Origin: Fimbriosthenelais zetlandica
Taxonomy: Eukaryota
Length of the DNA stretch: 64,000 nt
Assembly: GCA_977030845.1 (NCBI GenBank)
Contig: OZ365115.1
Location: 30,628,001-30,692,000, forward strand
Direction of reading: 5' to 3'
The position numbers are program-made. Shown in pieces: positions 42,001 to 45,000 of this stretch (positions within the stretch are counted from its first letter, which is position 1; each line of letters begins with the position of its first letter).

Positions 42001-45000
42001 CTGTAATTCACAATAACTAGTTCATTAAGTTTATTTTTCTTTAATTTGGTTTCCACATAGATTTCTTTCGGGGACTCTTACATCATTCATTGCATTTTGA
42101 ATTCCCTCTTTTGTTGGTCGCTATATTAAACAAAAGCTTTCTCCCCAAGGAAGTCTTTTTTTCAAGCACCTTCGCCTCACCATTCTTCCTCCACATTTCT
42201 GATGCCTTTTTCTATTGTCCAGCACCAGCTCATCTGTCTAAGGCCTATTGTTAAAGCATCATCAGAAACAATGTAGAAAACCTATTACCACAGGGGCATT
42301 TCTTTTAAGCAATTCAGTCTTATATCATCATTAAATTTTACACCCATTGGAAGTCTCTATAATATAAAGGCTTCATCCAAAGAGATATTTTCTATCAATA
42401 TTAATTTTGGATTAATTTTGGACACCCCTCTTTCACCCTCACAACCACCACTGGAGGGTGTTGTGCGGAGAAGGATGGCCATTGTGAATATTTCAATATT
42501 TCATCTCTGCCTACTTAGCCGAGGCGAGGTGAAGCTAAAAATAGCCCAATCTCTGACAGTGCTTCTAGGTGGCCGCCTGGAACCTTTCTCACATGGACTA
42601 GGTCTAATGCAATCAGAGGCCAAGATCCAGGTGGATTATGGGGCAGGGCCGGGTTTGATGTGTCTTCTTTATATAGATCTCATTAGTCAGGGAGCCATCA
42701 GATAAAGGTAATAAGATTTTATAGCCTCTAATTTATAAATAATTGTCAAAGAAGTTGTTTGTATCGGAAGCTGACTAACATAACTAATTAACTAGGAGGC
42801 AGAGAAGATTCATGATCACCAGATCATTGCCAATTTGCGTCTACCTATTGCCCTTGGTTTCAGGTCCATTTTTCTGTGCTACTGGGGGATTGAGTCTGTA
42901 GTATATTTAATAAGACAGGCTTGGTCTAAAACTTCATGAGAACTGACTTGAAGAGGAAAGTTGTAACTTTTGTAGCACAGATTGTTTAATAAACACTCTT
43001 CTACAAACATTGTTTCTCGTGAATGTGATCTGTGTCTGCCGCTAGCCACTGTCCTCCCCCAAGCTTTTACCGCTCCTGTTCTCGCCACTTTCCCTCTCAA
43101 TCAATCATCAGACCAAAAGTGTTTTTGACACGTTCCAAACACGCCCCTGGATTTAAACAGTGCCAAAACAGAACCCCCTCATTTCCGGTGAGTAACCTAA
43201 GCGAGGCCAGTTTCAAAAGTACTGGTCGCTGCCTGCTCCCCATTTCAGACATCTGCCTTCAGGGCTATAAGTGGTTGGGGATGTGAATTGAAATGTCGTC
43301 GCAATTGGCCTCTCCAAGAAATCCTCGCATTTTTCTGGGCTCTCAGATGACTTTTGACGCGTAAATTGGTCATGATTAGAATTAAATGACTGGATTTCCC
43401 TTCAAGAGATTTCGCCACTTTTTCTTGAGACATTCATCTAAAAACCAAGATGCAGTTTTTCTCGGAATCTTTCAGGAATGGCGGAAGACAGAAAGCTTTA
43501 AGAAATACTCACTGCAGAGGGAACTCGTGTATAACTCGGTTTACATACCTGCAAATAAAAGAGAAAGTAAATTAATTTACATGTATTTTTCACATTTAAA
43601 AAGAAAGATACCGGCACTAAATATCACAAAGTTTATAATCATATCTCACCTATTGGCTTATAGAACCAAGCAATGCAATATTAATGCTTCAGGCCAATTT
43701 ATCTATCGCTATCCAGTCGAGCTTTGCTGTACTGATACCTTGTCTAATTACCATTTATATATGGGACAGCAATTCATGACTTATGATAATATCTCATGTA
43801 TCACTATCCAGGGCACCAAGTGTGACCTCAACCCACCGGGTCAAATAACTTTTGTCTAAACAAAGGAATTCATTGCAAAGATTTTCACTTTTCTCTTATA
43901 GAAGATATCTCCATAAAACATCTGGTGCTTGCTTTAGAAATTGTGGACTGGTTTCTAAAGTTCATTTCTGTTCGAATAATTTCAACAAAGTTAATTTCCC
44001 ATCACATAGGCATATATCATTTAGTTGAAGTCCAGGGGCGTCGTGGGCACCTGTTGTTTTCGATATTTTTCTCGCTTGGTTCTAGTACATTTCAAGATAA
44101 ACAAGTCTTTATCGGTTACCTGAAGATAGGGAGGGGATAAACGGATAAATAAAAGGCAATTATGTATTCCTGGAAAATATGGTCTATGATCTAGAATAAG
44201 TTGACGAGGATGATGAGAAGTTTGGCAAGTCTAGCAGACTGACACCAATAGACCCGGTAGATGGCGTTTCCTGGTCATCCAGGAATCAGATATAAGCCCT
44301 ATAGTTTATTTCCATGAATGCTGGCGTAATGAAGCTGCTCTCATTCCTGCCCTATTATAGCTTCTGTACCAGGAAGTCCGAGGGCACCAACCAATCGGAA
44401 ATCCTTCTCTTTCACCCATCTATATTGTAAGATATATTTATAAGTAAGCAAATAGTTATACAAGTTTAGGTTAGTATATCACTCTTTGTATCACATTTTG
44501 TATAATCCTTTTCATGGGATGTTTGTGAGTATGACAGGAATCAGGTTCATCAGAACTGGATCAACGGGCACAGTGTCGCCACCTAGTAGCCAAGCGGCAC
44601 ACCAGAGACAGAACTCACTGCTGCCTCACACAGGTCATCTCTAGAACTAGGTCTCACTCAACGAGTGTAGGAGCGAGGAAAGATCAGTTTTGCATTCACA
44701 TATACAGGGATAGAGCTAGCTCAGGAAGACTTTGAGCAAAATTTGATTAGCCAAATTCCCTGTTAGTCAATGAATATGAATATGTGTTTTATTTTGGGAG
44801 AAATTGGGGCATATAATTTGGGTACAGGTAGGTCTAGGGATTGAGTAGGTGGAGAGAGGTGTGGTGTGGTGTTGGGTGGTAAATTAAATAAATTCTCCCA
44901 GACCCCAAAATCTTTAAATAATAACAAGTCACTGCATTCAGTGTTTATAATCCATCTATAAAGTATTTTGAATAGCCGGCCTACAGCAGAGACGAGTGAT

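What the first reader, a model, noticed from the sequence alone, without database searches (positions are those of the whole stretch)
43505..43580. Recursive-splice-type AG|GT site with a 36-nt frame-preserving exon
Seen: on the minus strand a branch-like ttaat, a long pyrimidine tract and tgcag are immediately followed by GTATGT, the donor hexamer used by the exons ending at 4689 and 1694. A second donor, GTGAGT, follows 36 nt later. It was the only such strong juxtaposition I found by eye. Established: recursive splice sites in long Drosophila and vertebrate introns have this form, a 3' splice site that regenerates a 5' splice site and is defined by a short downstream RS-exon. Inference: the long 5' intron is removed in steps, and the exon is either skipped as a zero-length ratchet or included. 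If included, it is open in phase 2 (YVNRVIHEFPLQ|KQAMDG) and in phase 0. Such a site in a non-model invertebrate would be of interest.
Basis: partly seen in the sequence, partly recalled or inferred. Interest (0 to 1): 0.68.

Follow-up and report, generated by a model that had tools for sequence, protein, structure and literature searches.

The report
Candidate recursive splice site, Rap1GAP-like gene
A textbook-looking "acceptor fused to donor" splice signal with a 36-base mini-exon really sits in a long 5' intron of a Rap1GAP-like gene, but without RNA data it remains a plausible, unproven example of a known mechanism.

Summary
On the minus strand a TTAAT, a tract with 17 of 20 pyrimidines and TGCAG (to 43549) are followed by GTATGT (43548). 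A GTGAGT donor follows 36 nt later (43512). It is the best such site on either strand. Chance expectation is about 0.02-0.25 per window, with thresholds partly set after the fact.

The gene is a Rap1GAP-like gene (GoLoco, Rap-GAP dimerisation and Rap_GAP domains). A relative's protein puts a start exon at 32329..32286 that joins 28497. A second relative reveals a distal start exon at 55362..55244 ending in the phase that 28497 needs.

This gives a 26,746-nt intron with the site inside, splitting it into 11.7 and 15.1 kb. The 36-nt exon would be in frame there. This fits published fly recursive sites in intron size, segment size, TT at -5/-6, a short downstream exon and a stronger regenerated donor.

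None of the related proteins examined carries the 12 residues. No RNA reads or related genomes could be consulted.

- Functional recursive-type element: about 0.4.
- Chance decoy: about 0.35.
- Ordinary small exon: about 0.2.

If real, it is a new member of a known kind. Interest is modest.

The parts
43571..43575 (-). Branch-point-like TTAAT. Its second A (43572) is 24 nt upstream of the exon start.
   Evidence: Fly recursive lariat branch points mostly lie at -36 to -21 (10.1101/006163).
43549..43570 (-). Polypyrimidine tract (17 of 20 Y at 43570..43551) plus AG. T is at -5 and -6.
   Evidence: The 13 homology-supported acceptors of the same gene have 11-17 of 20 Y.
43543..43548 (-). GTATGT directly after the AG. 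It would be the regenerated 5' splice site after ligation of an upstream exon.
   Evidence: With the last three bases (AAG) of exon A1 it scores 10.7 bits on the gene's own 9-mer donor matrix, where real donors score 6.6-12.6.
43513..43548 (-). Putative 36-nt recursive-splice exon. It is frame-preserving and open in the phase needed between A1 and exon B.
   Evidence: No related protein carries it.
43507..43512 (-). GTGAGT donor that would define the short exon. Its context is GCA|GTGAGT.
   Evidence: Its 9-mer score is 4.0 bits, below all 15 real donors of the gene.
55244..55362 (-). Distal alternative 5' coding exon A1 (ATG 55362; a further in-frame ATG at 55392; upstream in-frame TGA at 55419). 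The donor is GAGAAG|GTACAG. The exon ends with two bases of a codon.
   Evidence: tblastn of P0002 residues 9-46, E=0.004. Sequence. blastp gave E=3.5e-5 against 152 proteins, with P0002 the only match. ORF limits.
28498..55243 (-). Inferred 26,746-nt intron from A1 to exon B. The candidate site divides it into 11,695 nt and 15,051 nt (15,015 nt if the GTGAGT donor is used).
   Evidence: Coordinates. The A1-to-B junction is inferred from phase and from P0002 (...PSKR|KQSPDGG). No reads were seen.
32286..32329 (-). Proximal alternative 5' coding exon A2 (MERHFTKWHVVMGE + CT). The donor is GAGCT|GTAAGT. A possible acceptor lies at 32363/32362.
   Evidence: P0001 residues 1-15. Sequence. Upstream in-frame TGA at 32356.
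28392..28497 (-). Exon B (106 nt): G + KQAMDGQLYCEGHAPPDPGTPPALQKDTITNESAK. Relatives show it encodes the end of a LIM domain.
   Evidence: LIM in P0003, P0022 and P0115.
13248..13331 (-). GoLoco-motif exon.
206..6722 (-). Rest of the gene inside the window. It holds an optional second GoLoco exon (about 6701..6591). The other exons are 4766-4689, 4406-4215, 3946-3764, 3560-3423, 3262-3162, 2846-2717, 2573-2418, 2311-2153, 1963-1817 (alternative donor 1694), 702-617 and 319-206. The gene runs off the left end of the window.
   Evidence: Pfam Rap-GAP_dimer, Rap_GAP and GoLoco. tblastn of P0001. Boundaries.

Best explanation
The element at 43575..43507 (minus strand) is most likely a recursive-splice-type element in the long 5' intron of a Rap1GAP-like gene.

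Proposed mechanism, for transcripts that start at or upstream of the distal exon A1 (55362..55244):
1. The spliceosome defines the 36-nt exon through its very strong 3' splice site and the GTGAGT donor 36 nt downstream.
2. It splices A1 to 43548. This removes the first 11.7 kb and re-creates a donor, AAG|GTATGT, at the junction.
3. The two donors then compete.
4. Use of the regenerated donor removes the 36 nt together with the remaining 15 kb. The result is a zero-length ratchet that leaves no trace in the mRNA.
5. Use of GTGAGT would instead insert 12 residues in frame before KQAMDG.

Shown here: the sequence, its rarity, the gene, the two alternative 5' exons, and the phase compatibility.

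Inferred: that A1 is spliced to exon B, that the site is recognised at all, and which donor wins.
For: 1. Form. It has a branch-like TTAAT at -24, 17 of 20 pyrimidines, TT at -5/-6, CAG|GTATGT, and GTGAGT 36 nt later.

2. Rarity.
- It is the only one of 10 AG|GTRWGT sites with at least 15 of 20 Y upstream.
- 0.02-0.06 such sites are expected per window.
- It is top of the window under the published consensus, with 0.04-0.25 expected.

3. Exon-likeness. On the sense strand, 3 sites combine YAG with at least 16 of 20 Y and a strong donor 10-120 nt downstream. Two of these are homology-confirmed exons and the third is this site. The antisense strand has 1.

4. Position.
- It lies on the sense strand inside a 26,746-nt intron defined by exon A1 and exon B.
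- The segments are 11.7 and 15.1 kb.
- Fly recursive introns are 11.3-132.7 kb, and segments have a median of 16.4 kb (10.1101/006163).
- Relatives with a full LIM domain, and the absence of a LIM first half in the window, suggest a further upstream exon. That would mean an intron of at least 35 kb for that isoform.

5. Donor competition. The regenerated donor scores 10.7 bits against 4.0 for GCA|GTGAGT on the gene's own matrix. Fly cryptic recursive exons show this same pattern of a stronger regenerated donor (PMC8605326 Introduction).

6. Proteins. None of the 11 related proteins that cover the junction has an insert there. This fits a skipped exon.

7. Published base rate. High-scoring sites of this form are 4- to more than 20-fold enriched on the sense strand of large introns in four insects and a sea urchin (PMC2773006 Table 2).

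8. Copy number. The region is single-copy in the window.
Against: - There is no RNA evidence of any kind and no cross-species comparison of the site.
- Thresholds were set at or near the site's own values.
- With looser criteria, decoys are common: 17 exon-like sites on the sense strand, of which only 4 are known acceptors, and 6 on the antisense strand.
- On a position-specific matrix built from only 13 acceptors and 15 donors, the site ranks 2nd of 494 AGGT sites at 11.7 bits. An antisense site at 4438 scores 11.4.
- TT at -5/-6 is also found in 9 of the gene's 13 ordinary acceptors (read), so it does not discriminate here.
- Exon A1 rests on one relative only (E=0.004). A word-index search with A1 found nothing.
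- The isoform of the closest relative (P0001, 89% identical in exon B) starts at A2, downstream of the site.
- Published enrichment concerns introns over 50 kb, and most fly sites lie in introns over 40 kb (as cited in 10.1101/2024.12.11.627982). This intron is 26.7 kb.
- Fly cryptic recursive exons are usually out of frame. This one is in frame, which fits an ordinary cassette exon as well.
Confidence: 0.4

Rival explanations
1. Chance decoy. The acceptor-donor juxtaposition and the second donor are fortuitous intronic sequence that the spliceosome does not use productively.
For: - Exon-like decoys are frequent at slightly looser thresholds.
- An antisense site reaches almost the same matrix score.
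- Another strong acceptor with AG|GTAACC lies only 571 nt upstream, at 44119.
- No related protein carries the exon.
- The statistics were computed after the site had been picked.
- Openness in two of three frames and a length divisible by three are together about a 1-in-5 event (own estimate).
Against: - The expected number of sites this good is 0.02-0.25 per 128 kb of both strands. The expectation is several-fold lower for the 26.7 kb of sense-strand intron.
- A strong donor at exon-like distance makes it rarer still.
- In published surveys, most such sense-strand sites in large invertebrate introns exceed the antisense background.
Confidence: 0.35
2. Ordinary small alternative exon. The 36 nt are a conventional cassette exon that is included or skipped by normal exon definition. 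It would add 12 residues between A1 and exon B, or sit in the 5' UTR of isoforms that start at the Met inside exon B. The initial GTATGT would be coincidental or repressed, as the exon junction complex represses many annotated recursive-type exons in vertebrates.
For: - It is frame-preserving and open in exactly the phase left by A1 and required by exon B.
- Both of its splice sites are strong.
- Hundreds of annotated exons in deuterostomes re-create a donor yet are included (PMC6224609 passages).
- Relatives P0018 and P0058 begin at the Met of exon B, so non-coding upstream exons exist in this gene family.
Against: - None of the 11 related proteins covering the junction has the insert.
- The peptide has no match better than four residues among 152 relatives.
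- In LIM-type isoforms, 12 extra residues would fall inside the second zinc finger.
- The exon's own donor has a poor exonic context, GCA|.
Confidence: 0.2
3. The element belongs to another transcript, for example an exon of an unannotated non-coding RNA or of a gene nested in the intron on the minus strand.
For: Nothing positive. It cannot be excluded, because only protein homology was available to find genes.
Against: - The ten longest open frames tested, including the 157-aa antisense frame 43386..43859, gave no significant Pfam match.
- Rfam gave 0 matches at gathering threshold over the whole window.
- No repeat or second copy of the region was found.
Confidence: 0.05

Closest known systems
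Drosophila intronic ratchet points with cryptic recursive-splice exons (Burnette 2005, Duff 2015, Joseph 2018 and 2021; read here: 10.1101/006163 whole text, PMC8605326 Introduction)
   Same: - Juxtaposed strong 3' splice site and 5' splice site around AG|GT.
- Prominent pyrimidine tract with TT at -5/-6.
- Branch-like A within -36..-21.
- Short downstream exon closed by a second donor (about 50 nt in flies, 36 nt here).
- Regenerated donor stronger than the exon's own donor.
- Intron and segment sizes within the fly range.
   Different: - The donor is GTATGT rather than the GTAAGT consensus.
- The exon is in frame, whereas fly cryptic ones are usually out of frame.
- At 26.7 kb the intron is at the short end of the fly range.
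- The organism is unidentified.
- There are no junction, saw-tooth, lariat or conservation data, which are what define the fly sites.
Ultrabithorax micro-exons mI and mII (Hatton 1998, as described; the original paper was not read)
   Same: Small frame-preserving exons that begin with a donor sequence in a long intron. After the first splice, either the regenerated donor or the exon's own donor is used, so the exon is skipped or included.
   Different: - Ubx exons are 51 nt and their inclusion in mRNA is documented.
- Here no isoform with the 12 residues is known.
Vertebrate recursive-splice exons, cryptic and annotated (Sibley 2015 as cited; Blazquez 2018, PMC6224609 passages)
   Same: - Exon definition comes first, followed by competition between the reconstituted and the downstream donor.
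- AG/GTATG is among the motifs used to call vertebrate sites (list quoted in 10.1101/2024.12.11.627982).
   Different: - Vertebrate cryptic sites sit in introns of hundreds of kb.
- Annotated ones are mostly constitutively included under repression by the exon junction complex.
Computationally predicted ratchet-point sites in non-Drosophila invertebrates (Shepard 2009, PMC2773006 Table 2)
   Same: A motif-only prediction on the sense strand of a large intron. Sense-strand enrichment has been reported for mosquito, bee, beetle and sea urchin.
   Different: - That survey used introns over 50 kb and gave genome-wide counts, not individual validated sites.
- The present case is a single site in a 26.7-kb intron.

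Membership tests
Recursive splice site (ratchet point with recursive-splice exon) | [quoted passage not shown] | tested here: met
   -.
- It is the best site in the window.
- It has 15 of 17 matches to (Y)12NCAG|GTAAGT.
Recursive splice site (ratchet point with recursive-splice exon) | TT at -5 and -6 (196 of 197 fly sites) | tested here: met
   - (ttgcag).
- It does not discriminate here, because 9 of the gene's 13 ordinary acceptors also have it.
Recursive splice site (ratchet point with recursive-splice exon) | Lies on the sense strand inside a long intron (fly minimum 11.3 kb) | tested here: met
   - The intron is 26,746 nt, from A1 to exon B.
- This depends on exon A1, which is supported by one relative plus its ATG, donor and phase.
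Recursive splice site (ratchet point with recursive-splice exon) | Downstream 5' splice site defining a short exon | tested here: met
   GTGAGT lies 36 nt downstream.
Recursive splice site (ratchet point with recursive-splice exon) | Regenerated donor at least as strong as the exon's own donor (needed for a zero-length outcome) | tested here: inconclusive
   - 10.7 against 4.0 bits on a matrix built from only 15 donors of the same gene.
- By eye, the two have similar total complementarity to U1.
- No MaxEnt tables were available.
Recursive splice site (ratchet point with recursive-splice exon) | Junction reads from the upstream exon into the site, saw-tooth coverage, and lariats to and from the site | not testable with these tools
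Recursive splice site (ratchet point with recursive-splice exon) | Conservation of the AG|GT core above the flanking intron in related species | not testable with these tools
   - The only open contig collection holds bacteria and archaea.
Ordinary cassette micro-exon | Presence of the encoded residues in protein or transcript isoforms of the gene or its relatives | tested here: not met
   - None of the 11 relatives covering the junction has an insert.
- The best peptide match among 152 proteins is 4 residues, E=2.1.
- No protein of the same species was found, so the test is weak.
Rap1GAP family (the host gene) | Rap/Ran-GAP catalytic domain preceded by the Rap-GAP dimerisation domain, with a GoLoco motif in some members | tested here: met
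   - Pfam on single exons: Rap_GAP 1.9e-18, Rap-GAP_dimer 6.5e-23 and 2.4e-11, GoLoco 1.9e-5 (just under the curated cut-off).
- The exons are collinear with P0001.

The most novel reading that the evidence does not exclude
The 36-nt exon is a Ubx-type switchable recursive micro-exon in an animal outside flies and vertebrates.
- In most transcripts it acts as a zero-length ratchet that lets the 27-kb or longer 5' intron be removed in two steps.
- In some tissues its own donor wins and 12 residues are inserted just before the LIM-remnant/KQAMDG segment of a Rap1GAP.
- Recursive splicing would then double as an isoform switch, coupled to the choice among at least three alternative 5' exons.
Probability: 0.12. 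Interest if true: 0.55.

Novelty: new member of a known kind. Interest (0 to 1): 0.32.

Why it matters
Where recursive splicing is known:
- It has been shown experimentally in fruit flies, mice and humans (as stated in 10.1101/2024.12.11.627982).
- Motif enrichment suggests it in other insects and a sea urchin (PMC2773006).
- In five searches of the held library I saw, in listings and passages, no paper reporting an experimentally shown site in another invertebrate group.

What this case offers:
- It is a clean, single-copy candidate with a defined upstream donor, a defined downstream acceptor and a frame-preserving mini-exon.
- That makes it easy to test by RT-PCR or total RNA-seq.
- A positive result would extend the phylogenetic range of the mechanism.

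On its own it is one motif-level prediction of a known mechanism.

The practical gain of this work is a corrected 5' gene model:
- two alternative start exons;
- a 26.7-kb intron;
- an exon encoding the end of a LIM domain.

Tried and rejected
1. Is the 36-nt exon a remnant of the LIM-encoding exon that relatives have before KQAMDG? Rejected.
- The peptide has no Cys and no similarity to ...C..C..PLTLRSY(R/K).
- tblastn with four N-termini and three LIM regexes on six frames found no LIM first half anywhere in the window.
- The apparent 'CICD' match upstream of 28497 is the acceptor's pyrimidine tract read as protein.

2. The antisense 157-aa open frame over the site (43386..43859), and nine other long frames, gave no significant Pfam family.

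3. Rfam at gathering threshold gave 0 matches in the window.

4. No repeats of at least 40 nt were found, and no second copy of 43300..43800. The site is therefore not part of a repeated element within the window.

5. A CpG observed/expected profile, run to find a promoter, showed no island. The window mean is 0.47 and nothing stands out at A1 or A2. It was uninformative.

6. A word-index protein search with exon A1 found nothing. The searches with exon B and with exon 4406..4215 found only P0001 and P0002.

7. The look-up of cluster members and names for ten proteins could not be made, because the shared database was off. Organism and isoform sets stay unknown.

8. The position-specific matrix from the gene's own sites proved too small to rank acceptors reliably. 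The candidate's acceptor scores only 5.0 despite 17 of 20 Y. I rely on tract counts and the published consensus instead.

Every exon was searched or translated on its own.
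Full report
**What is in the sequence**

On the minus strand, reads ...aaattaat ttactttctcttttatttgcag|GTATGTAAACCGAGTTATACACGAGTTCCCTCTGCA|GTGAGTAT.
- The AG is 43550..43549 and GTATGT is 43548..43543.
- The putative exon is 43548..43513 (36 nt), and GTGAGT is 43512..43507.
- The tract 43570..43551 has 17 of 20 pyrimidines.
- T is at -5 and -6.
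- The second A of TTAAT (43572) is at -24.
- Two of the exon's three frames are open, and the third reads ATG-TAA.

**Is it more than chance?**

- AG|GT[AG][AT]GT occurs 10 times on both strands. The pyrimidine counts upstream are 5, 6, 7, 7, 10, 11, 11, 12, 14 and 17.
- The 17 is this site. The 14 is 13247, the real donor end of the GoLoco exon.
- 49 of 7744 AG dinucleotides have at least 17 of 20 Y upstream. This gives 0.063 expected sites. 200 Markov-1 simulations gave a mean of 0.02.
- With the consensus printed in the literature, (Y)nNCAG|GTAAGT (PMC2773006), the site is the best in the window for n=12 and n=16. For n=10 it ties with 13247(-) and 57353(+).
- 100 simulations gave 0.25, 0.09 and 0.04 sites per window.
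- I then required YAG, at least 16 of 20 Y, and a GTRAGT or GTATGT donor 10-120 nt downstream. The sense strand has 3 such sites: two homology-confirmed exons (4766, 702) and this one. The antisense strand has 1.

Against this:
- All thresholds were chosen with the site in view.
- At 15 of 20 Y and a 200-nt reach there are 17 sense-strand hits (4 of them known acceptors) and 6 antisense hits.
- On a matrix built from the gene's own 13 acceptors and 15 donors, the site is 2nd of 494 AGGT sites at 11.7 bits. An antisense site (4438) scores 11.4.

The site is unusual but not overwhelmingly so.

**The gene**

- Single-exon translations hit Pfam Rap-GAP_dimer (6.5e-23 and 2.4e-11), Rap_GAP (1.9e-18) and GoLoco (1.9e-5).
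- A search with exon B (28497..28392, extended by 15 bases to reach the minimum length) found one protein, P0001. It is 712 aa, unnamed, and 89% identical over the exon.
- A search with exon 4406..4215 found P0001 again and P0002 (741 aa, 55% identical).
- tblastn of P0001 maps 14 collinear exons from 32.3 kb to 0.2 kb on the minus strand. Boundaries were read.
- Of the 15 homology-supported donors, 6 are GTAAGT, 1 is GTATGT (after 4689) and 1 is GTGAGT.
- I searched every exon on its own.

- P0001 begins MQGHFTKWRSVMGEL|KQAMDG. Its first 15 residues map to 32329..32285 (MERHFTKWHVVMGEL).
- The donor GAGCT|GTAAGT leaves CT, which with the G at 28497 makes Leu.
- So the exon next to 28497 in this isoform is at 32.3 kb, not 43.5 kb. 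An in-frame TGA lies at 32356, 27 nt upstream of the ATG.
- P0002 has a longer N-terminus. Its residues 9-46 match 55362..55267 on the minus strand (E=0.004, 47% identity).
- The window sequence there starts with ATG. It ends GAGAAG|GTACAG at 55244/55243, leaving AG, which with the G at 28497 makes Arg. This mirrors P0002's ...PSKR|KQSPDGG.
- This distal exon (A1) is matched only by P0002 among 152 relatives. A word-index search with it found nothing. It is reasonably but not firmly established.
- It defines an intron 55243..28498 of 26,746 nt.
- The candidate site divides that intron into 11,695 and 15,051 nt.
- The 36-nt exon is in frame there: AG+G, then YVNRVIHEFPL, then CA+G.

**A further upstream exon is likely**

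- A full HMMER search with P0002 returned 5973 proteins at E<=0.001, of which the best 150 were held.
- 11 of the 152 held proteins carry the ...[LVIF][YF]CE.H segment of exon B near the N-terminus.
- In three of them (P0003, P0022, P0115) this segment is the end of a Pfam LIM domain (E values 3.6e-8, 4.3e-10 and 9.1e-6).
- Others have unrelated N-termini. Two begin at the Met inside exon B.
- The window holds no LIM first half.
- Either that exon lies beyond the right end of the window, making the intron at least 35 kb for that isoform, or it has been lost.
- In a LIM isoform, 12 extra residues would fall inside the second zinc finger.

**Is the 36-nt exon ever included?**

- None of the 11 proteins covering the junction has an insert there.
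- The best match of the peptide among 152 proteins is four residues (E=2.1).
- No protein of the same species was found, so this is weak evidence.
- It agrees with skipping or with non-use, not with constitutive inclusion.

**Comparison with published recursive sites**

From the Duff et al. preprint (10.1101/006163, whole text):
- Recursively spliced fly introns are 11.3-132.7 kb, with a mean of 45 kb.
- Segments are 2.6-63.6 kb, with a median of 16.4 kb.
- 196 of 197 sites have TT at -5/-6.
- Branch points lie mostly at -36 to -21.
- The sites are conserved.
- Only 6% of introns above the minimum size are recursive.

From Joseph et al. 2021 (PMC8605326, outline and Introduction):
- Sites carry a cryptic exon of about 50 nt closed by a second donor.
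- The regenerated donor is generally the stronger of the two.
- Cryptic exons are generally out of frame.
- The 51-nt Ubx micro-exons are the expressed exception.

Here the regenerated donor (AAG from A1 plus GTATGT) scores 10.7 bits. GCA|GTGAGT scores 4.0 on the gene's own 9-mer matrix, where real donors score 6.6-12.6. The matrix is crude.

From other papers:
- Shepard et al. 2009 (PMC2773006, passages and Table 2) give sites per 100 kb in introns over 50 kb against their complements:

| Species | Introns | Complement |
|---|---|---|
| Fly | 2.20 | 0.10 |
| Mosquito | 1.03 | 0 |
| Beetle | 0.81 | 0.10 |
| Sea urchin | 0.54 | 0.066 |
| Bee | 0.48 | 0.12 |

- Most sense-strand motif sites in large invertebrate introns are therefore not chance. 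It also means motif-level prediction outside Drosophila is already in print.
- Blazquez et al. 2018 (PMC6224609, passages) show that many annotated exons re-create a donor yet are included, because the exon junction complex represses it.
- I saw only passages of PMC6110457, PMC10156609 and PMC8553928. I read part 1 of 3 of 10.1101/2024.12.11.627982.
- Hatton 1998, Burnette 2005, Sibley 2015 and Joseph 2018 were not read. They are cited through the papers above.

**Verdict**

The anatomy, the strand, the position in a long 5' intron, the segment sizes and the donor hierarchy all fit a recursive-splice element whose mini-exon is normally removed. I put this at about 0.4. The rivals are:
- a chance decoy, about 0.35;
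- an ordinary small alternative exon whose initial GTATGT is incidental or repressed, about 0.2;
- an element of another transcript, about 0.05. Pfam, Rfam and repeat searches gave nothing for this.

**What stayed unchecked**

- Any RNA evidence.
- Conservation of the site.
- The organism and the isoform sets of the relatives (could not be made).
- Supplementary tables of the cited papers, which were closed.

The window is not taken for human. Its Rap1GAP-like exons are 88-89% identical to P0001 where measured. The whole-protein search with its relative P0002 listed 150 hits, all but five of them at 36-60% identity.

Noticed in passing
window 28392-28497 (-), and beyond the right end of the window: Exon B encodes the last residues (MDGQLYCEGH) of a LIM domain that is complete in relatives P0003, P0022 and P0115. 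This gives a LIM-GoLoco-RapGAP architecture. The first half of the LIM domain is not in the window. No paper in the held library contains Rap1GAP, LIM domain and GoLoco together.
   Followed up: partly
window about 6591-6701 (-): A second GoLoco-like exon (SPDFMEALVCFQSRRLEDQRCYLP; Pfam GoLoco E=1.9e-5, just under the cut-off). It is absent from P0001 but present in tandem with the first motif in P0028. It is likely a cassette exon. Its boundaries were not determined.
   Followed up: partly
window 1694-1817 (-): Two donors close the same exon. AAG|GTACGC after 1817 is used by P0001 and P0002. TTG|GTATGT after 1694 adds 123 nt in frame. The extension resembles the VRSQS(V/I)(D/E)S stretch of several relatives, only weakly (E 0.15-0.4).
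   Followed up: partly
window 44119 (-): Another very strong acceptor...cccctccctatcttcag|GTAACC, lies 571 nt upstream of the candidate on the same strand. It scores one point below the candidate on the consensus scan, and its donor half is weak.
   Followed up: no
window 18274 (-)...tttatttttcttag|GTTAAT lies in the 15-kb intron between exon B and the GoLoco exon. It has the highest combined matrix score of all 494 AGGT sites, because of its acceptor half. Its donor half is poor.
   Followed up: no
window 32286-32363 (-): Exon A2 may have an acceptor, cag|GTCTTG, at 32363/32362 (13 of 20 Y). Splicing of A1 to it would meet a TAG after four codons. A2 is therefore either a first exon or is used only with non-coding upstream exons.
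   Followed up: no
whole window: CpG observed/expected averages 0.47, with no CpG island. The highest values (0.75-0.9) flank exon B and the GoLoco exon. There is a weak reverse-transcriptase trace at 23641-24036 (+) (RVT_1 E=0.096, not significant).
   Followed up: no
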